Of a stretch of 64,000 nucleotides of DNA, positions 3,854 to 59,034 are shown in pieces. A program made the translations under genes and the position numbers. This DNA is from an uncultured bacterium (GTDB lineage: Bacteria; Desulfobacterota_D; UBA1144; Nemesobacterales; UBA2774): assembly GCA_963825135.1 (NCBI GenBank), contig CAWGRW010000009.1, forward strand, positions 1,728,001 to 1,792,000, read 5' to 3'. Position 1 is the first letter of the stretch; each line of letters begins with the position of its first letter. The notes under the pieces are model-generated. The model had not been told where the DNA came from. It made no database searches and was given only the letters and a program-made list of their open reading frames with translations.

Positions 3854-5098
3854 ATGGATCAGCATATAAGAGATGAAATACTTGCTAAAAGGTCGGGCAT
3901 ACCGACTTTAGGCATATACATATTTCTAATCATCGCCGTAATCGGTTTCGGCACGTTCATATCTCAGATTTTAGGGTCTGATCCGAAGAGCGCCTGGGAG
4001 ATATTTTTAATCAATTTCCTATTCTGGACCGGCATAGCGCAGGCGGGTGTGGTTTTTTCTTGCATACTCCGTATCACAAACGCCAGGTGGGCGAGACCGC
4101 TGCTCCGCGTGAGCGAGGGCCTTGGCTCGTTTCTGCCTATATCCCTGATTCTTCTCCTCGTGGTCTTCGCCGGGAGGGATTACATACTCCCTTATGCTAC
4201 GGAGCACTATCACCATCCGAAGGACGTATGGCTCAACATGAAGTTCGTATTCGGCCGTGACGTTATCGGATTCGTAGTCCTGCTTATCGTGAGCTCGTGC
4301 TACCTCTACTATTCCCTTAGACAGGACCTGGGAGGTGTGAGCCAGAAACTGAGCGGCCTCGCGGGATGGGTTTCCTCCGGATGGACCGGAGAGGAAGAGC
4401 GTAAGCGGATCTGGGTTAAGATAGGCAAATTCGCCCCGGCCGTGATTATATTATACGCCGTCGTCTTTAGCTGCTTTGCCTGGGATTTTATGATGTCGCT
4501 CGACCCGAACTGGTTCAGCACTCTATTCGGCCCGTTCTACTTCATGGGGAGCTTTGTCTCCGCGATCGGTACGACTATAATATTTTCGATACTCGTGAGG
4601 AGAAGGCTCGGCTTAGAGGATTATCTTAACGACAATCAGTATCACGACATAGGCAAGCTCCTTCAGGGCTTTTCGCTCTTCTGGGTTTACCTCTTTTTCT
4701 CGCAGTTCCTTCCGATATGGTACGCGAACATGCCCGAGGAGACGTCATTCGTAATCAAGAGGGTGCAGGAAGAGCCTTTCAGGTCGCTCGCATGGGCGGT
4801 GCTGACGTGCTGCTTCATTTTCCCTTTTATTTCCCTCCTTCCCAGGACGAACAAGGTGGTGAAGCCCATAGTCGTATTCATAGCTTCCGTATCCCTGACC
4901 GGGTTCTGGCTGGAAAAGTATGTGCTGATAATACCTTCACTATCGAATACCGTGGGAATAAGCTTAATGCAGATACTCATAACACTGGGTTTCCTGGGCG
5001 CATTCGTTATGACTTTCCTTATCTTCATGAGGACGTTTCCGTCAATACCTGTAGGTGACCCGTTCTTCGGCGGGAAATCCGGTTCTGGAGGACACTAA
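3854..5098 (+). CDS. actF: Alternative complex III membrane subunit ActF
   Basis: ActC-paralogous polytopic protein with WDFMMSLDPNWFSTLFG, HDIGKLL and QFLPIWYANMPEET. Confidence 0.88.
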   Translation: MDQHIRDEILAKRSGIPTLGIYIFLIIAVIGFGTFISQILGSDPKSAWEIFLINFLFWTGIAQAGVVFSCILRITNARWARPLLRVSEGLGSFLPISLILLLVVFAGRDYILPYATEHYHHPKDVWLNMKFVFGRDVIGFVVLLIVSSCYLYYSLRQDLGGVSQKLSGLAGWVSSGWTGEEERKRIWVKIGKFAPAVIILYAVVFSCFAWDFMMSLDPNWFSTLFGPFYFMGSFVSAIGTTIIFSILVRRRLGLEDYLNDNQYHDIGKLLQGFSLFWVYLFFSQFLPIWYANMPEETSFVIKRVQEEPFRSLAWAVLTCCFIFPFISLLPRTNKVVKPIVVFIASVSLTGFWLEKYVLIIPSLSNTVGISLMQILITLGFLGAFVMTFLIFMRTFPSIPVGDPFFGGKSGSGGH

Positions 5099-14674: not shown

Positions 14675-15121
14675 TTGGGCAGGGTCTACAAGCACACGCA
14701 AATCGGTTATGTGATGTTTCTGATAATCGGGACAGGGCTTTATCTACTGTTGAACTTCTTCTATCTGCACGGGTTCATTATCGTATTCGTCGCCGTTTTT
14801 GTATTGCTCGCCGTCTGCCTGGTTTTGTTTGCCGCATTGAGGGTGGAAGTTGACGACAGGGAAATCTCGGTTCGTTTCGGAATCGGGATCATCCGCAAGA
14901 AATTTCCGGTAAGCGGGATCGAGTCTGCCGCGATAGTCAGGAACCCCTGGTATTACGGATGGGGGATAAGGAAAACGCCCGATGGCTGGCTCTACAATGT
15001 ATCCGGATTAATCGCGGTCGAGCTGCGGATGAGGAGCGGGGAAAGATTCCTGATCGGGACCGACGACCCCATGGGGCTCCTGAATGCGGTGCAAGGGGTT
15101 ATTCCCGGAAAAAGCGTGTGA
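14675..15121 (+). CDS. Hypothetical membrane protein (two TM helices plus PH-like C-terminal domain)
   Basis: YKHTQIG, WYYGWGIR, WLYNVSG and IGTDDP; TTG start uncertain. Confidence 0.65.
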   Translation: MGRVYKHTQIGYVMFLIIGTGLYLLLNFFYLHGFIIVFVAVFVLLAVCLVLFAALRVEVDDREISVRFGIGIIRKKFPVSGIESAAIVRNPWYYGWGIRKTPDGWLYNVSGLIAVELRMRSGERFLIGTDDPMGLLNAVQGVIPGKSV

Positions 15122-51228: not shown

Positions 51229-52042
51229 TTACCGCGTCCTGGAGAAAGCCTCGTCGAGGAGGTTAATCTGCTTCTCCGACAGACGCCATCCGGACGCCCC
51301 GCAGTTCTCTATCGTTCTCTCGACGCTGTCCGATTTCGGAATTGCTATGACGTTCTCACGGGAGGTGCACCAGTTAAGCGCGACCTGCGCCGTCGTTTTC
51401 CCGGTCTCAAGGGAAATATCTTCGAGCACCCTGGTTCTTTCTGACGACATGAAACGGGGCCTCGATGCGAGGGTGCCGTCGTCAAGGGGCGTGTATGCGA
51501 GGACCGTTATCCCGTGTGCGAGACAGTAGGGGAGTAAATCCTTTTCGATCCCCCTCTCGTTCAGGTTGTAAAGCACCTGATTTGAAACTATCGGCGTGTG
51601 CCTGAGCGCGGCCCTCGGCCTCTCTCAGGTCGTCGAGGTCAAAGTTGCTCACCCCGATGAATCTTACGATTCCCCTCTCGACGAGCGTCTCCATGGCGCG
51701 CATGGTTTCACTCATCGGATAAGACGAGTTGGGCCAGTGGACCTGGTAGAGGTCGATGTGCTCCGTGCCGAGCTCGGAGAGGCTCCCCTCGGCGGCCCGC
51801 AGCACGTCGTCGTAGCCGAGACGCCTGCCCGATACCTTGGTTGCGATGAATACCCTGTCCCTCATCCCCCTGACCGCTTTGCCGACTACGTGCTCCGTGC
51901 CATATCCCTCGGCGGTGTCTATTAAAGTCGCACCGAGCTCGATCCCTTTCCGCAGAGGCTCGATGCCGCCCCTGTATCTCCAGGTCCCGAGCCCGATCTC
52001 CGGGATCAATACCCCTGTATTCCCAAGCTCTTTTAATTCCAT
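51229..52042 (-). pseudogene. Aldo/keto reductase split by a one-base frameshift (or sequencing error)
   Basis: N-half (IGLGTW, IDTAEGY, IDLYQVHWP, IGVSNF) and C-half (YNL, AYTPL, AQVAL.W, IPKS) lie in different frames; removing one C from CCC at 51612-14 restores ...EAEAALRHTPIVSNQVLYNL. Confidence 0.85.
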
Positions 52043-52119
52043 AGAGCGCAAACCCCTATATTTCGGGCTGGTCCGATTCTCCGGGAGAGGTTCTAACCTC
52101 GCTTAAGGCTCTCCTCTGT

Positions 52120-52446: not shown

Positions 52447-52565
52447 TATGAGAACCCCCTCCTACAACTAGTTTCTATAATATATCATCTATAGAAAAAT
52501 GACTGAAAAACGCTTTCTTTCAAGGTATCGGCGGAAGTCTCAATTCGAGCTGTTTTTTCTCATAA

Positions 52566-52655
52566 TCGGCCTTGCAACAATTTCAAAATATTGTAGATTT
52601 ATACGTCCGGCCGGGGTGTAGCTCAGATTGGCTAGAGCGTTGCGTTCGGGACGCA
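52566..52655 (+). repeat. Left 90-bp direct repeat: tRNA-Pro promoter plus 5' half of the tRNA (attL-like)
   Basis: Identical to 58346-58435; the tRNA part starts at 52612 and stops after the anticodon stem; imperfect similarity extends about 20 bp further upstream. Confidence 0.93.
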
Positions 52656-52791
52656 AATTGTGATTAAGAAAAGCATCATTGCTGCAGTATCTTAAGTAGG
52701 CATTTCAACCAAATTTCCCTTCCATGTAACCATTCACTAACCAAAGACACCGGCTATATGTCCAGATACCTCAACCTTATGGAGGCGACGT

Positions 52792-52872
52792 ATGGCGAGT
52801 CTACAGCGAAAGAAACGTACAACTAGTTGGCTTAATTGTCATATTCGAAAATTCATTCCTATCAGTCGGTAA
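52792..52872 (+). pseudogene. Possible N-terminal stub of a tyrosine integrase
   Basis: GGAGG SD plus MASLQRKKRTTSW..., 26 codons, about 135 bp inside attL and pointing inward. Confidence 0.35.
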
Positions 52873-52931
52873 TCGGGCTAACTCTCTGGAGAAACCTCAA
52901 AGTACGTATAACAGAGTCTGAACTAAGAATA

Positions 52932-53094
52932 TTGTCATAATTGAATGACAAATTTTGTCATTTCCGTCGTTACTCGAATAGCATTAAGTCGCGCTACTTT
53001 TCTAGTAATTTAAAGGAGTTATATAATATTTAACGATAATTCCGGCTAGTATAGTTCATTATTGGCTTTTAAATAAGATGGCATGAATTTTGAT
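52932..53094 (+). promoter_or_regulatory. Sigma54-like promoter with upstream TGACA/TGTCA palindromes
   Basis: Perfect AATGACAAA-T-TTTGTCATT at 52944-62; TGGCAT-N5-TTGAT at 53079-94 (-12 is GA instead of GC). Confidence 0.5.
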
Positions 53095-53157
53095 ACTAAG
53101 TAAGAATACAATTAAAAATCGTAAACTATCTGACAAATCATTCTTTGGAGTAAGTAT

Positions 53158-56100
53158 ATGTTTCAGACTCTCGATTCTGAGTTAAATGCTGTAAGTAGAA
53201 ATAAAAGATTATTGCTTTCTGATCATCTGTTCTCATGCGTTGTAATACCTGGTGATGATGCATCTGTAGAATTCATTAATTTATGTAATACAATATATCA
53301 GCATCTGGACCAAACGCGAATACAAGTTAATTTTTTGCCAGAAATAGATAAGCAAGCTGGATCATACGAGCAGCTATTCGATCAATTAGTTGATAACTGC
53401 ATTTTTGTTATTGCGATGAAAGGGGACTTTGAAAAGAGTTTATCATACGAGTATGGATATTTGAGAGGCATAAGAAAGCCAATTATTGTAATAAATACCA
53501 CAAATAATCCAACACCCGCCGATACAAAACATGATAGGGCCAATCATGATAATCATGAATCTACTCATAAAGAGATCTTGAATAAATTCATCGATTACAT
53601 TGACCTAGGTTCGGAATCACAACATGATCTTCCGGATCAATTTATAAACAAATTCGATCAAATCCTCTTAGAAATAATGGAAGGGTCTTTAATTAACTCC
53701 GATAAGATCATTAATGTAAATCAAGAAGTACCATTTAATGATATCAAAAATCTGATAAAGCGGATTTTAAAATATTATATATTACGGAATGATTACGGTT
53801 TACATGAGATCGATGAGATATTTAAATCGATTGATAAATTAGATGCAGATCAACATAAGAATCTCCCTTCGTTAGTACTAAACTGCTTACTTGCTCTTTC
53901 AATTGATTTATTGAGAGCACAAAATGATAAGAATCAAGTTCATGATATAGCAGAAAAGTGCATATCTATGTGTCAAACAATATTGGATAATGAAAAAGAT
54001 CTGGTATTTAAAGCAGTTATAGAGAAAAAGTTGGCTGATTTGCTGTTAATTTCCCCAGACCCGGATAATGAGGTTGGGAATCTTGAAAGAGCTGTAGATC
54101 TTTATAAAAAATCTAAAGAGTATTTAACAATAGATGACTATCCTCATTATTTAGTTTCAATAAATAATAATCTTGGTGTGGCGTTGAATGATTTATTCCG
54201 AATTCTAGGAGAATCAAAGTATCTGAATGAAGCGAATGATTACCTTTCTAACCTGGTGGCAGATCAAATTTCTTCAAATTCTAATTATGCGTTAGTTAAA
54301 TATAATCTTGGTATTACCAGGTTGGGGTTTGCTTCAGTGGTTGGTGCTCAATATGATTATTATGATGCACTTGAATGCTTCAATAGCTTTCTAATGGATT
54401 CTTTTTACCTCCATAATAATGAAGAATTTTTGGATATTGAAATCAACATTGGGTCTATTTATTTTACAATTGCTCAAGAGCAAAACGATCAACTATGTTG
54501 CGAGAGATCAATAGGAGTATTTCAAAATATTCTAGGTTTATGCTCTACTCAAATTCATGAAATGGAGTACGGAATTATTAACCGCAGTCTCGGTGACATT
54601 TATAGCTTTCTTGACGCTTTAAGACCAGATAATATTGAAACGAAGCTGAATATTATTGGATTTTATGAAGAAGCTTTAAAAATATATACATTAGATAAAT
54701 TCCCAGATGAATATTGTTGTATAAGGTTCAAATTAGCAGATGCACTAAGTACACTTAGGCGACGACACGATTTGGAAAGTGCGTCAGAAATCTTCAATCA
54801 ACTTTTGAGTACTCCAATTCTTGAGTCTTACAACTACAATTATGCTCTTATTCAAAAGAAACTTGCCAGCTTATACTTAAGGTTAGCCAAAATGGATATG
54901 AGTAAGAATTATCACTCTATGGCTTTAGAGAGTTACGAAGATGCATTGTCTCAATTCTCTTCAATGAAAGACGAATACGAGATTGCTGATCTAAAAAAGT
55001 ATTTGGGAGATTTGTACATTCTCGATGCGAAGGAGAAAAGTGATTTCTCTTTATATCTAAAAGCTACAGAGGCTTATCAAGATGCACTTAGTTATTTTAC
55101 AAGAGATAAGTTCCCATTGGTTTTTGCCTCACTCAAGATGAAACTCGGTGATCTAAATAGAATGATCGCAGAATATCAGAATTCTATCGATGATTATAAT
55201 GATGCTATTCGTGCTTATGAGGAATCTCTTAATATTTATAATTCTTATGAATTTCAAAAAGAATCATGGGAAGTGCATAAGAAGATTAGCGATACATATA
55301 TGACCTTGGGAGACATCAAATCTAATTCACAATATCCAGATGAGGCGATCACTTATTATACTGAGGCTCTAAAATTCCTAACAAATCAAAGCTCACCGAT
55401 TGAAAAGGGGAATGTTCTGAGAAAACTAGGTAATGAGCATGTTCAATTTTCTAGAATTGTATTCCGTACTCAAAATTTAAAACATGCTCTCGAATATTAC
55501 GAGAAAGCCCTACTGTATTACAATCCTGACGAGTTTCCATCCGAATATGAAGAGATAAGAATTAATATGGGAACAAATTTCAGGATATTAGCAGTTCTTG
55601 AAAAAGAGAGGGGCAACTTGAAAGATGCAATCTCATTTTATGAGAGAGCTGCTGAGTTTATTTCAATTAACAACAATCCAGATAAATACGCTTCACTGAT
55701 GGTCGCAATTGGATCCATATACAAACAACTATCGCAGATTGAAAATGAAGTAGTTAATAGCAAAAAAGCTATCGAGTATTATATCAATGGATTAGTTGTT
55801 TATAATCCACAAGATCATCCTCATGAGCATGGTACTTTACAAAAACATCTGGGGTTAACATATATAGATATAGCCGAGAAAGAGAATTATCTCGAAAATA
55901 TAAGAAATGCATATAAAGCATTTGAAGCATCTCATAAAATATATTCAGTCGAAGACAATCCCGAAGATTTGTTATTTGTGGAGAGTAAATTGTCGGAACT
56001 GAGTAGAAAGATTTCAAATGGAGACAACAGCACTTCAAATCAAAATGTGCTTCAGGATTCAAGCTATGATAATTTGACGACGCTTGATCCAATCAATTCT

Positions 56101-57873
56101 GCTCTCAACAATCATGAAATCGCTGAACAAATGATGACACTTGACCAACCGGCTGAATTTAAAGATATGGACTCCAATAGAGAGGGCTTGAAAGAAGTAA
56201 GAGTTGAAACAGAGGAGTTCAGTCCATTAAATTTGGAAATAGACTTAACTAATAACGAATTAAATGATGATTCAGAATCTATTGAACGCCTAGATCAGCT
56301 CATCAGTGAGACATCTCCAGTGGAATCGCCAAAGCTTCATGCATACCTAAATTATAAGATTGGCAATGCTTATCAAAATATTGGCAAATCTCACGGTTCC
56401 TCACAAAATTACAAAGAAGCAATAAGATATTATGCTCAAGCCTTAAAATATTATACATATGAGGAATACCCATATGAATATGCTTGTATAAATGGCGAAC
56501 TTGCAACTACTTATAAATATCTAGGCGACTCATCTGGCGATTTAAAAAACTATGAGGTTGCAATAGAATTATACAATGAGTCATTAGGACTAATTAAGAT
56601 TGATGAGCATCCCATTGAATTCGGGAATTATAACCTAAATATGGGACTCATTTTTAGTGAATTTAGCAGAATTCTTCAACTCAAAAAGCATCATGAAAAT
56701 GCGATACATGCATATAATGAAGCACTAAAGGTTTTTGAATCGAGCGAATATCCTTATGAGTATGGATTAATTCAGATTAAGCTAGGTTCCGTTTATAGCA
56801 TGCTTGCTTATTATGAATATTACTCCTATAACTGTCTAAAATCTGCTGAAGCTTACAAGCAAGCACTAACCGTATACGACTTCGAGAATTTCCCTAATGA
56901 ATTTGCAGAGATTCAAAAAGAACTGGGCATCTTATATTTGAATTCTGGTTTAAATGATATGGATAATAATAATTTCTTGTTATCTGTAAAATCATTCGAA
57001 GAAGCACTAAAACACTATAACTTAGAAAATTACCCAGCGGATTATGGGTTAATAAAAATAAAAGAAGCTAAATCTTATGAATATTTATCCAAAGCTTCCG
57101 AGGAATCATATTATCTGAGACAAAGTATCGATGCTTATAAAGATGCAATTAAATATTATACCCATGAGACTTATCCAGATGTATTTGCTTCAATAGCATT
57201 AAGTTTAGGCGATGTTTATCATAATATCGGTAAGCTAGAAAACACAGACATAGATCAAAGAATTGCAATTGAATACTATAAGCAGGCTCTTATGGTTTAT
57301 AATTCAATTGAGTTTCCTCTAGAGTATGCAACTACAGAATATAATATAGGAATGGCATACTTAATGCTTTCAGATTCTGGGCAACTAAAAGAAAATATCA
57401 TTAATGCGATAAATTCCCTCAAAGCATCATCAAAAGTCTATTCGAAAATAGGGCTATCTGATCAGTATGGAAGTTGTGAGAATAATCTTGGCATAGCGTA
57501 TATGCAAATTGCGAATGAGCCGGAAGGTAGTGCTTATCTGTCGTTAGCTCAAGAATGTTTTGAGAAGGCGATTAAAGTCAGGACTTGTGAAAAACAGCCG
57601 CTCGAATTTGCCAATACGCAGTTTAATTTAGGGGCTTTATTCATGACACTCTATAAGAACGAGAAAGAAACAGAATATGCCGAAAGGTCTGTACAAGCTT
57701 ATGAAAAGGCTCTGCAAATCTACATCGTAGATAAATTCCCGGCTGAATACAACACAATACAAAATAATCTTTCATGGATGAATCAAACACTTGCTAAAGA
57801 AAAAGATGAAAACAAGTCTTATGATGATAGCTGGACTTACCTACGAAAGTCTACTCCGAATAATTTAAATTAA
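53158..57873 (+). CDS. Large TPR-like repeat protein with an N-terminal nucleoside-deoxyribosyltransferase/TIR-like domain
   Basis: N-terminal CIFVIA...SYEYGYLRGIRKPIIVI; about 26 repeats of about 47 aa (A..YEEALK.Y....FP.EY...Q..LG..Y) in two arrays split by an acidic linker; GGAG SD. Confidence 0.85.
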   Translation: MFQTLDSELNAVSRNKRLLLSDHLFSCVVIPGDDASVEFINLCNTIYQHLDQTRIQVNFLPEIDKQAGSYEQLFDQLVDNCIFVIAMKGDFEKSLSYEYGYLRGIRKPIIVINTTNNPTPADTKHDRANHDNHESTHKEILNKFIDYIDLGSESQHDLPDQFINKFDQILLEIMEGSLINSDKIINVNQEVPFNDIKNLIKRILKYYILRNDYGLHEIDEIFKSIDKLDADQHKNLPSLVLNCLLALSIDLLRAQNDKNQVHDIAEKCISMCQTILDNEKDLVFKAVIEKKLADLLLISPDPDNEVGNLERAVDLYKKSKEYLTIDDYPHYLVSINNNLGVALNDLFRILGESKYLNEANDYLSNLVADQISSNSNYALVKYNLGITRLGFASVVGAQYDYYDALECFNSFLMDSFYLHNNEEFLDIEINIGSIYFTIAQEQNDQLCCERSIGVFQNILGLCSTQIHEMEYGIINRSLGDIYSFLDALRPDNIETKLNIIGFYEEALKIYTLDKFPDEYCCIRFKLADALSTLRRRHDLESASEIFNQLLSTPILESYNYNYALIQKKLASLYLRLAKMDMSKNYHSMALESYEDALSQFSSMKDEYEIADLKKYLGDLYILDAKEKSDFSLYLKATEAYQDALSYFTRDKFPLVFASLKMKLGDLNRMIAEYQNSIDDYNDAIRAYEESLNIYNSYEFQKESWEVHKKISDTYMTLGDIKSNSQYPDEAITYYTEALKFLTNQSSPIEKGNVLRKLGNEHVQFSRIVFRTQNLKHALEYYEKALLYYNPDEFPSEYEEIRINMGTNFRILAVLEKERGNLKDAISFYERAAEFISINNNPDKYASLMVAIGSIYKQLSQIENEVVNSKKAIEYYINGLVVYNPQDHPHEHGTLQKHLGLTYIDIAEKENYLENIRNAYKAFEASHKIYSVEDNPEDLLFVESKLSELSRKISNGDNSTSNQNVLQDSSYDNLTTLDPINSALNNHEIAEQMMTLDQPAEFKDMDSNREGLKEVRVETEEFSPLNLEIDLTNNELNDDSESIERLDQLISETSPVESPKLHAYLNYKIGNAYQNIGKSHGSSQNYKEAIRYYAQALKYYTYEEYPYEYACINGELATTYKYLGDSSGDLKNYEVAIELYNESLGLIKIDEHPIEFGNYNLNMGLIFSEFSRILQLKKHHENAIHAYNEALKVFESSEYPYEYGLIQIKLGSVYSMLAYYEYYSYNCLKSAEAYKQALTVYDFENFPNEFAEIQKELGILYLNSGLNDMDNNNFLLSVKSFEEALKHYNLENYPADYGLIKIKEAKSYEYLSKASEESYYLRQSIDAYKDAIKYYTHETYPDVFASIALSLGDVYHNIGKLENTDIDQRIAIEYYKQALMVYNSIEFPLEYATTEYNIGMAYLMLSDSGQLKENIINAINSLKASSKVYSKIGLSDQYGSCENNLGIAYMQIANEPEGSAYLSLAQECFEKAIKVRTCEKQPLEFANTQFNLGALFMTLYKNEKETEYAERSVQAYEKALQIYIVDKFPAEYNTIQNNLSWMNQTLAKEKDENKSYDDSWTYLRKSTPNNLN

Positions 57874-58027
57874 CTTATATAGACATCGACTCTCTGAATC
57901 TCGCTGATCGGTTATGTGTTTGCCGCAGTTGACTCCTCAACATAAAGGAGAAGCCTCACCTATCTTATGGATTTAAATGTAGAGAAGTCATTCACTTGCA
58001 GCTCATATATCCAAAAACCTGGTGCCA

Positions 58028-58053
58028 GGGTTCGAGTCCCGTCGTCCCCGCCA
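58028..58053 (+). other. 3'-end fragment of a different tRNA (Asp-like), probable att scar
   Basis: GGGTTCGAGTCCCGTCGTCCCCGCCA = T-loop, acceptor 3' strand, G73 and CCA; no 5' half upstream. Confidence 0.7.
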
Positions 58054-58351
58054 GTCGCTAATGAACATTCCCAAATATTTTATTGATAAAAAGGATAAGA
58101 GGGAAATTGATCCATTAGAAGAGCTTAAGAAGAAGAAAACAAGAAGGAGGGCCATGTTATGACTTGATATATGCATAATAATGTGATTTTGTGTTTACTT
58201 GTATAAGGGATCTGATTATAGTTTTGATCAAAAGGGCATATAGTTTCATCTAACCAGCGTCCAACGGATTGGTTAGAAATATAGGGAAATTGCTGTGTTC
58301 CAACGTGCTAAAAGGAGCCTCGGATTGAGCTGTTTTTCTTCACGGTCGGCC

Positions 58352-58379
58352 TTGCAACAATTTCAAAATATTGTAGATT
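58352..58379 (+). promoter_or_regulatory. Sigma70 promoter of tRNA-Pro (second copy at 52572-52599)
   Basis: TTGCAA-N16-TAGATT followed by a GC-rich stretch just before the tRNA. Confidence 0.65.
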
Positions 58380-58391
58380 TATACGTCCGGC

Positions 58392-58469
58392 CGGGGTGTA
58401 GCTCAGATTGGCTAGAGCGTTGCGTTCGGGACGCAGAGGCCGCCGGTTCAAGTCCGGCCACCCCGACCA
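58392..58469 (+). tRNA. tRNA-Pro(CGG)
   Basis: Full cloverleaf: CGGGGTG/CACCCCG acceptor, GCTC/GAGC D-stem, TTGCG-TTCGGGA-CGCAG, GCCGG-TTCAAGT-CCGGC, A-CCA. Confidence 0.97.
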
Positions 58470-58569
58470 TTCTTACTTCTATCAGTCCTTCGGGATAGCC
58501 TGTAACCATCGAATTTTCGACAAAATCTGAATAACCAATCCCATTCATGGACGGATCGCTCGCACGAAG

Positions 58570-58878
58570 TCAGTCTTGGGAGTTCGATTTGCTGCTTTTG
58601 ACCGTTGTCCCCTCAGCAGGGGCAGGAGTAGGAGCAGGCGTAGGTTGTAATTGGCGTTCGCTTGAGTTCGACTTGCTGCCTTTGACCGTTGTCCCTTCAA
58701 CGGGCTCAGGGGCGGGAGTAGGAGCTGGTGTAGGCGTAGGTTGTAATTGGCGTTCGCTGGTGTTCGACTTGCTGCCTTTGACCGTTGTCGGATTGGCATA
58801 TGCCATATGTACCGTCAAATGAGCTGCAAAAATCCCTAAAAATAGAAATACGGAAAATAGATATATTAGACGCTTCAT
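58570..58878 (-). CDS. Secreted 102-aa protein with three TTVK(G/S)SKSN repeats and Pro/Thr linkers
   Basis: GGAG SD before ATG 58878; signal peptide ending AYA; repeats visible at DNA level. Confidence 0.8.
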   Translation of the reverse strand: MKRLIYLFSVFLFLGIFAAHLTVHMAYANPTTVKGSKSNTSERQLQPTPTPAPTPAPEPVEGTTVKGSKSNSSERQLQPTPAPTPAPAEGTTVKSSKSNSQD

Positions 58879-58990
58879 TTTAATAACTCCTTGAAACCGA
58901 GTTTGATACTTGTAGCCTTGCAAATATCGTATGAGCACCTATTTACCCTGTCCGGCCCATAAATTTGAAAATGACTCACTGCCCGAAAAA

Positions 58991-59034
58991 GGGACTGAGA
59001 GGCCGCCGGTTCAAGTCCGGCCGCCCCGGCCATT
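58991..59034 (+). repeat. Degenerate copy of the tRNA-Pro 3' half (attR-like)
   Basis: 40/44 identity to 58428-58471. Confidence 0.85.

What the first reader, a model, noticed from the sequence alone, without database searches (positions are those of the whole stretch)
52547..58469. Island duplicates the promoter and 5' half of tRNA-Pro rather than the usual 3' end
Seen: 52566-52655 is identical to 58346-58435 (90 bp covering -35/-10 and the tRNA through the anticodon stem), with diverged similarity further upstream; the intact tRNA is at the right end. Known: most tRNA-targeting islands lie downstream of the gene and restore its 3' end, and 5'-restoring islands are uncommon. Inference: attP carried its own tRNA promoter and 5' half, with crossover in or near the anticodon arm (the left copy ends in a perfect TTGCG/CGCAA stem, the intact one in CGCAG). 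The functional tRNA would now use an element-supplied promoter.
Basis: partly seen in the sequence, partly recalled or inferred. Interest (0 to 1): 0.72.

Follow-up and report, generated by a model that had tools for sequence, protein, structure and literature searches.

The report
Decayed island restoring tRNA's front half
A 5.8-kb piece of foreign DNA sits in front of a tRNA-Pro gene and carries its own copy of the gene's promoter and front half, likely inserted by an integrase that has since been deleted here; this is a known but uncommon kind of insertion, here from an integrase family whose members use both this and the usual back-half arrangement.

Summary
In detail: 52566-52655 = 58346-58435 exactly (90 bp, -46..+44 of tRNA-Pro(CGG)). 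It is a real 5'-restoring island. Same-genus genome G007 has the complete element: 5' fragment, tyrosine integrase, the same TPR gene (96% nt), intact tRNA. In the window 1,069 bp of that integrase are deleted; an independent metagenome contig shows the same junction. Five of 7 same-genus relatives with the locus have a single tRNA. Independent elements place the crossover at the anticodon loop. The class is known (Islander: 159 of 3919 islands), and this scan noted a similar decayed case on other DNA (e1-5267006). Less ordinary: within one integrase clade 3'- and 5'-restoring layouts alternate at least 4 times (monophyly of the Pro-type rejected, p-AU 0.0014), and the integrase sits behind the host tRNA promoter.

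The parts
52547..52611 (+). host-side tRNA promoter left behind (putative -35 TTGCAA 52572-52577, 16-bp spacer, -10 TAGATT 52594-52599); now points into the element
   Evidence: continuous with the flank of empty-site relatives G003/G008; motif conserved in 18 of 21 copies; below scanner threshold
52612..52655 (+). displaced 5' fragment of tRNA-Pro(CGG), +1..+44 (attL); symmetric core TTGCG-N7-CGCAA at 52640-52656, anticodon loop 52645-52651
52724..52742 (+). degenerate tandem TAAC-N7-TAAC repeat, predicted integrase arm-type site (P' arm)
   Evidence: perfect copy at the same place in G007 and before 15 clade integrases; weak alone: rank 14 in the 2.8-Mb contig
52781..52818 (+). ribosome-binding site (GGAGG 52781), first 23 nt of the tyrosine-integrase gene (ATG 52792-52814) and deletion junction ACGT (52815-52818); 1,069 bp of the G007 integrase region are missing
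   Evidence: same junction in run X6
53158..57873 (+). cargo: 1571-aa TPR-repeat protein with an N-terminal flavodoxin-like (TIR/nucleoside-deoxyribosyltransferase-type) fold; function not shown
   Evidence: Pfam TPR families; 96% nt to G007 copy; model pLDDT 66.6, best matches tied at Z 9.3-10.2 incl. MilB Z 9.9/3.3 A/125 aa and SIGIRR TIR Z 9.6/3.5 A/122 aa
58028..58072 (+). nested 3' end of tRNA-Asp(GUC) plus 19 bp of its flank, remnant of another att site
   Evidence: 43 of 45 nt match G000 C9:152054-152010; flank not shared with 11 relative loci shown
58091..58162 (+). 3' remnant of the small DUF6788-like ORF that is whole at the right end of the G007 element
   Evidence: 18 of 21 aa identical, E 4e-9; weak Pfam DUF6788 hit E 0.032, below cut-off
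58248..58266 (+). degenerate tandem repeat, predicted arm-type site (P arm)
   Evidence: aligned with G007's perfect copy; score 9.5, not significant alone
58326..58391 (+). element-side copy of the tRNA promoter (-35 58352-58357, -10 58374-58379)
58392..58469 (+). intact tRNA-Pro(CGG), the genome's only one (attR: element-derived 5' half, host 3' half, inferred)

Best explanation
This is a genomic island lying upstream of the intact tRNA-Pro(CGG) gene, bounded by two copies of the promoter and 5' half of the tRNA, which likely entered by tyrosine-integrase recombination at the 7-bp anticodon loop and has since lost its integrase. The circular precursor would carry, in order, a P arm, a tRNA promoter plus 5' half, the core, a P' arm and the integrase gene. 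Integration leaves the host promoter and a 44-nt stub on the left, pointing into the integrase gene 137 bp further on, and rebuilds the tRNA on the right behind the element's promoter copy. The two promoter copies were then probably made identical by gene conversion or by RecA-type excision/reinsertion within the repeat, most likely host to element. Later deletions removed the integrase and part of the cargo, grounding the element and keeping the TPR gene. Shown: repeat, empty sites, intact form, deletion, block boundaries. Inferred: strand-exchange position, arm-site function, promoter activity, direction of homogenisation.
For: Intact form in G007: fragment 4755-4798, 362-aa PF00589 integrase with R192, K217, R302, H325, Y334 (first catalytic His position is Y299), same TPR gene, intact tRNA at 15009. 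Empty sites: 5 of 7 same-genus relatives in which the locus was found have one tRNA and no 5' fragment; 2 of 9 gave no match; the window with the island removed aligns to G008 (331 matches over 390 nt) and G003 (327 over 392). Right edge of the shared block is fixed near the anticodon loop (+37..+49) while the left edge varies from -107 to 0 across G000, G007, G014, G006, G047, G011, G041, L107, L114 and G000's own tRNA-Arg island; in G014 the block is only -1..+47 and the upstream sequence is unrelated, so crossover is inside the gene. 3'-type fragments at the same tRNA begin at +31 (G009); overlap +31..+40 contains the loop (+34..+40). Tandem arm-like repeats at both element ends in G000, G007, G047, G041 and none beside the tRNA in 5 empty-site loci. 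Runs X2 and X3 hold integrase sequence joined to the TPR spacer, X3 in one 1769-bp contig from the fragment on; X6 holds the same deletion junction; X3 holds a contig joining 52502 to 58325. Homogenisation: -46..-1 copies 100% within G000, 98% within G007, 76-78% between them, while the TPR gene is 96% identical between them.
Against: No excised circle or integration was observed; only contigs, no raw reads and no RNA run were available. No intact integrase of this clade is in G000. The promoter is below the consensus-scan threshold. The arm-like sites in the window are degenerate and not significant alone. Promoter duplication is not general to 5' islands: present in 6 (G000 Pro, G007 Pro, G047 Pro, G011 Arg, G000 Arg, G041 Met) and absent in 5 (G014 Pro, L107, L114, G004 Arg, G007 Arg) of 11 with both ends. 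At the tRNA-Arg(UCU) site both upstream types look element-derived, so the direction host-to-element is not general. Promoter type does not follow the host tree cleanly: G004 groups with G008 but has a G007-like promoter core. Element ends of G000 and G007 are only 62-77% alike, so ancient insertion with later cargo exchange is as possible as recent transfer.
Confidence: 0.88

Rival explanations
1. The element inserted upstream of the promoter (crossover near -46), so the intact tRNA keeps its own host promoter and the left copy is the element's; nothing needs restoring.
For: The right-hand -46..-1 core is host-type in sequence; in G000 alone the crossover cannot be placed within the 90-bp block.
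Against: G014, L107 and L114 share no upstream sequence between copies, and all blocks end at the anticodon loop; the left flank upstream of -46 is the host's (77-79% to G008/G003 over -200..-116, right copy 53-54%); symmetric core at the loop; element-specific arm repeats and ORF remnant lie upstream of the right copy.
Confidence: 0.04
2. This particular copy arrived already integrase-less, by homologous recombination through the repeat or through flanking DNA from a relative, or was mobilised in trans/cis; the integrase explains only its ancestry.
For: Run X6 has the identical deletion junction on a contig whose upstream loose end differs from the window's flank; TPR 96% and integrase-TPR spacer 94% identical between hosts that are 81% identical in flanking genes; perfect 90-bp identity.
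Against: Does not change what the structure is; X6's flank is known only from a 30-nt consensus; vertical inheritance of the deletion explains it equally.
Confidence: 0.06
3. Assembly artefact or local tandem duplication of the tRNA promoter region, unrelated to a mobile element.
For: Perfect identity of a short repeat could reflect consensus collapse; no read-level check was possible.
Against: Same layout with 1-3 differences between copies in G007 and G047; integrase next to the fragment in 4 genomes; low GC interval; independent contigs.
Confidence: 0.02

Closest known systems
Islander islands with a 5' tDNA fragment (Hudson, Lau & Williams, PMC4383910; parts 1-2 of 3 of the text read)
   Same: tDNA plus same-strand 5' end fragment upstream, tyrosine integrase, anticodon-centred site; 159 of 3919 islands are of this configuration.
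   Different: The window's copy lacks the integrase, so Islander's filter would reject it; the parts read do not discuss promoters or switching between 5' and 3' layouts.
[quoted passage not shown]
   Same: Replacement 5' portion of a tRNA gene carried on the element.
   Different: Could not be compared in detail; promoter content, integrase position and target not checked.
Pelagiphages HTVC021P/HTVC022P/HTVC011P (bioRxiv 10.1101/410191; passages read)
   Same: On integration the host tRNA is split and complemented by a phage-borne 5' part; junctions confirmed by PCR there.
   Different: Phages with integrase upstream of attP; the word promoter does not occur in that text; here a small non-phage island with integrase downstream of the stub.
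dusA-associated integrase islands (PMC4482086; passages read)
   Same: Island replaces the 5' end of its target gene and supplies putative -35/-10; original 5' end forms the outer boundary.
   Different: Target is a protein gene; replacement sequence is new, not a host-identical promoter copy.
InTr shapes / KplE1 intS autoregulation (PMC2951348; abstract and sections 10-11 read)
   Same: Integrase start lies just inside attL, with predicted arm sites between promoter and start codon, as in STI shapes that are autoregulated.
   Different: That scheme counts integrases beside intact tRNAs; here the integrase is beside the displaced 5' stub, directly behind the host tRNA promoter with no tRNA terminator in between.
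CIMEs, cis-mobilisable elements (name taken from earlier scan notes; definition recalled)
   Same: att ends kept, integrase lost, cargo retained, tandem accretion at one tRNA (G006 has two 5'-type elements in tandem).
   Different: Mobilisation by a neighbour not tested; CIMEs as recalled are 3'-type and derived from ICEs; no conjugation genes seen in the G007 or G014 elements.
tRNA-dependent lysogeny (PMC10865867; passages read)
   Same: Element must make good a tRNA gene it splits.
   Different: There the tRNA is not rebuilt and a whole phage tRNA complements; here it is rebuilt at attR and the island holds no whole tRNA.

Membership tests
tDNA-integrated island with 5' fragment (Islander criteria) | end fragment of the tDNA on the same strand, 5' fragment upstream of the gene | tested here: met
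   +1..+44 at 52612-52655, gene at 58392-58469
tDNA-integrated island with 5' fragment (Islander criteria) | length 2-200 kb, fragment outside protein domains | tested here: met
   5780 bp; no ORF of 70 aa or more over the fragment
tDNA-integrated island with 5' fragment (Islander criteria) | tyrosine integrase encoded in the island | tested here: not met
   window keeps 23 nt only; met in the G007 copy of the same element. So the window's copy is filed as a decayed derivative, not as an active member
tDNA-integrated island with 5' fragment (Islander criteria) | uninterrupted site in relatives | tested here: met
   5 of 7 same-genus relatives with the locus
anticodon-loop (site A) tyrosine-integrase elements | crossover core is the 7-bp anticodon loop flanked by symmetry | tested here: met
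   by comparison only: 5'-type blocks end +37..+49, 3'-type begin +31; TTGCG-N7-CGCAA; strand exchange itself not assayed
anticodon-loop (site A) tyrosine-integrase elements | arm-type binding sites on both attP arms | tested here: inconclusive
   tandem repeats at both ends in 4 elements, weak in the window; binding untested
anticodon-loop (site A) tyrosine-integrase elements | excision as a circle / integrase-dependent integration | not testable with these tools
   only contigs from other organisms were available
CIME-like decayed elements | both att ends kept, own recombinase lost | tested here: met
CIME-like decayed elements | mobilised in cis by an adjacent intact element | not tested
   no intact clade integrase in G000
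tRNA-dependent lysogeny | tRNA not rebuilt at an att junction; element encodes a whole cognate tRNA | tested here: not met
   tRNA is whole at the right junction; no tRNA inside

The most novel reading that the evidence does not exclude
One integrase clade flips freely between restoring the 3' and the 5' half of tRNA genes, in both orientations, by recapturing whichever flank it needs; the 5' forms keep swapping in the resident host's tRNA promoter, which both keeps the tRNA correctly regulated in each new host and puts the integrase under a stable-RNA promoter, so that element mobility is tied to growth rate and the integrase is repeatedly deleted to ground the cargo.
Probability: 0.3. Interest if true: 0.6.

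Novelty: new member of a known kind. Interest (0 to 1): 0.36.

Why it matters
As a single locus it is a clean, comparative-genomics-confirmed example of an uncommon but catalogued island class, now immobile. The wider value is the clade: sister integrases with 3'-restoring, 5'-restoring and inverted 5'-restoring att sites at anticodon loops make the question of how attP acquires its replacement gene segment, and which side, directly testable; the G007 integrase with its att sites is a ready assay system. It also shows that island finders needing an integrase or a 3' fragment miss such elements: 2 of the 10 tRNA genes with fragments in this genome are 5'-type.

Tried and rejected
Promoter scanner did not call the tRNA promoter, and found no excess of promoters or terminators; the anticodon hairpin of the stub was flagged terminator-like, at chance level (1 found, 0.4 +/- 0.6 expected). 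The stub transcript has no unusual fold (z +1.1). Rfam found only the tRNA and a sub-threshold hit on the stub. Metagenome scan with the G007 integrase gave 5 distant loci, none informative. No RNA holder listed. PADLOC gave only a weak generic TPR match; a defence role for the cargo is not shown. Single-sequence fold was unusable (pLDDT 37.5); the fold search on the alignment model does not separate TIR, deoxyribosyltransferase and other flavodoxin-like folds. Atlas look-up gave no answer. Monophyly of the four Pro-type integrases rejected (G006's sequence is partial, G007's branch is long). G023's two degenerate tRNA-Pro copies 1.5 kb apart were dropped from all counts as uninterpretable. 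G018 and G019 lack the promoter motif and were not resolved. Three of 26 clade matches (G050:C107, G045:C86, G052:C290) were not in the tree; L096, L097, L099 repeat loci already held and were not counted twice. Literature: searches (phrases on 5'-portion/tRNA promoter/attP) returned no paper holding all terms; some searches returned the papers cited; Williams 2002 and Zhao & Williams 2002 were not held, so promoter capture may be described there. No supplements were read; those of Islander/TIGER-type papers may list such islands.
Full report
1. Observation. The repeat is as described: 52566-52655 equals 58346-58435 over exactly 90 bp, covering -46..+44 of the only tRNA in the window, tRNA-Pro(CGG) at 58392-58469, which is also the genome's only CGG gene. 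Similarity decays upstream (107 of 113 to about -69; 58% over -115..-47). The DNA between is 33.9% GC against 53.1% and holds one long ORF, a 1571-aa TPR protein.

2. Empty and filled sites. Searching 40 relatives with the left junction and fetching 18 loci: of 9 same-genus genomes, 5 (G002, G003, G004, G008, G009) have one whole tRNA and no 5' fragment, 2 (G007, G006) have 5'-type elements, 2 (G001, G005) gave no match at this locus. G003 and G008 share the window's left flank and run straight into the whole tRNA; the window with the island cut out aligns to them at 327 of 392 and 331 of 390 positions. So the left flank and left promoter are the host's and the insertion lies upstream of the gene.

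3. The intact element. G007 carries a 10.25-kb version: fragment +1..+44, a 362-aa tyrosine integrase starting 137 bp later (PF00589, E 1e-29), the same TPR gene (96% nt), a GDSL-type and an ATP-grasp gene, a small DUF6788-like ORF, promoter copy and whole tRNA. The window keeps the ribosome-binding site and first 23 nt of the integrase, then ACGT, then resumes just after its stop: 1,069 bp are gone. A contig in run X6 has the same junction, X3 has fragment-integrase-spacer on one contig, X2 has integrase joined to the spacer, and X5 and G006 show other deletions of the integrase. The window has also lost the two middle genes and the 5' part of the small ORF, whose 3' end survives at 58091-58162 behind a stray tRNA-Asp 3' end. 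G000 has no intact integrase of this clade, so the element is grounded unless helped.

4. Where the crossover is. Within G000 alone it could be anywhere in 90 bp. Across independent elements the right edge of the shared block is nearly fixed: +40 (G047), +44 (G000, G007), +47 (G014), +49 (G006) at tRNA-Pro; +37 to +43 at other tRNAs; the left edge ranges from 0 to -107. In G014 the block is -1..+47 and the sequence upstream of the whole tRNA is unrelated to the host promoter, which remains in front of the stub. 3'-restoring fragments at the same tRNA start at +31 (G009). The common part, +31..+40, contains the anticodon loop (+34..+40), flanked in the stub by a perfect TTGCG/CGCAA repeat. This matches the anticodon-centred site class (2083 of 3919 Islander islands) and the usual 7-bp exchange segment of tyrosine integrases (passage in PMC10111431). 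Tandem TAAC-N7-TAAC repeats lie inside both ends (window 52724, 58248; perfect in G007 and G047) and not beside the tRNA in 5 empty-site loci; I read them as arm-type sites by position, but in the window they are degenerate and weak alone.

5. Whose promoter? A TTG..-N16-TA(G/A)ATT motif precedes 18 of 21 tRNA-Pro(CGG) copies in relatives, so it is the ancestral host promoter (activity inferred; the scanner does not call it). Over -46..-1 the two copies are 100% identical in G000 and 98% in G007, but 76-78% between the two genomes; G000's variant is 93% like element-free G003, G008, G009. The same element thus carries a different promoter core in each host, matching the resident one. Simplest reading: homogenisation between the direct repeats, host to element. 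The tRNA is therefore transcribed from element DNA whose core sequence is the host's; only sequence upstream of -46 differs. Caveats: such duplication is found in 6 of 11 two-ended 5' islands and absent in 5; at tRNA-Arg(UCU) both upstream types look element-derived; promoter type does not track the host tree cleanly. A by-product of the layout is that the integrase start lies behind a tRNA promoter both in the circle and after integration; no convincing terminator intervenes. Whether it is transcribed from there is untested; arm sites between promoter and start codon would allow autoregulation as shown for KplE1 intS.

6. The integrase clade. A profile search of 120 genomes of the class found 26 matches at E <= 1e-80 in 17 genomes; 23 went into a tree. 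By att geometry (labels set before the tree): 13 follow a whole tRNA (usual 3'-restoring layout; distal 3' fragments seen for 3), 4 follow a 5' stub (all tRNA-Pro(CGG): G007, G014, G006, G047; whole tRNA seen at the far end for 3), 4 sit divergently beside a whole tRNA (5' fragment seen at the far end for 2), 2 unassigned. The G014/G006 pair nests among tRNA-Thr 3'-type integrases (100/98). At least 4 changes between 3' and 5' state are needed, and one clade for the Pro type is rejected (p-AU 0.0014). Among 80 more distant loci, 16 listed a whole tRNA on the same strand about 100 bp after the integrase; most are cut short, and a matching upstream 5' fragment was confirmed in 2 of them (L107, L114). 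G000 itself has a second 5' island of 15.2 kb at tRNA-Arg(UCU) with a broken clade integrase. The closest named integrase records are titled Desulfobacterota/Thermodesulfobacteriota; the host's own lineage was not established by a call.

7. Cargo. The TPR protein has 20-28% identical homologues in 20 of 100 other genomes of the order at other loci, but a 93% match only in G007. Its N-terminal 150 aa model as a flavodoxin-like domain with tied matches to a nucleotide hydrolase (MilB), TIR domains and others; Pfam gives only a sub-threshold deoxyribosyltransferase hint. A sensor-plus-nucleotide-degrading effector is a guess, not a result.

8. Comparison with what is known. Islander counts 159 of 3919 islands with a 5' fragment; Krupovic et al.'-distal recombination considerably less frequent and cite Zhao & Williams 2002 and archaeal cases; pelagiphages restore the 5' end of tRNA-Cys; dusA islands replace a gene's 5' end and supply a promoter. 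I found no held paper on promoter homogenisation or on 3'/5' switching within a clade, but two key 2002 papers were not available.

9. Verdict. Real, correctly interpreted, and a decayed new member of a known minority class. Interest 0.36, carried mainly by the clade-level switching and the host-matching promoter rather than by this copy.

Noticed in passing
window 58470-59034: [quoted passage not shown]
   Followed up: partly
window 58028-58072: tRNA-Asp 3' end plus 19 bp of flank identical in type to this genome's own tRNA-Asp locus (itself followed by several 3' fragments); a contig in run X4 follows the window to 58056 and then diverges.
   Followed up: partly
L228 1972-17250 (G000:C9:2187971-2203248): Second 5'-restoring island in this genome, 15.2 kb at tRNA-Arg(UCU), block -107..+43 (148 of 150), broken divergent integrase; G004 and G007 have different 5' islands at the same tRNA without promoter duplication.
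   Followed up: partly
window 58943-58986 vs G000:C9:2188176-2188219: The arm of the 3'-type Pro remnant resembles (35 of 44) sequence beside the 5' fragment of the tRNA-Arg(UCU) island, hinting that a further element family also occurs in both layouts.
   Followed up: no
L029 5211-7027 (G006): Tandem of two different 5'-type elements at tRNA-Pro; the first keeps only the first codons of its integrase, broken at nearly the same point as in the window.
   Followed up: partly
L102, L107, L137 vs L101, L113, L158: 5'-type layouts sit at the first gene of tRNA clusters and 3'-type layouts at the last, which would keep tRNA operons unbroken; anecdotal, not counted.
   Followed up: no
L214 1833-2250 (G050:C107): Sequence reading like a complete attP (arm repeats, core ending exactly at the anticodon loop, reversed 5' half, arm repeats, integrase): an excised circle or a tandem junction.
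   Followed up: no
L022 7377-9644 (G014): The G014 5'-type element carries a family-B (organellar/viral type) DNA polymerase-like gene with a C-terminal HTH.
   Followed up: no
window 51229-52051: The aldo/keto reductase gene is split into two overlapping ORFs here but whole (273 aa) in G007: frameshift or assembly error.
   Followed up: no
L036 (G018) just upstream of tRNA-Pro: A degenerate D-arm-like stretch about 50 bp upstream and a G014-element-like sequence in place of the host promoter: possibly a collapsed 5'-type element.
   Followed up: no
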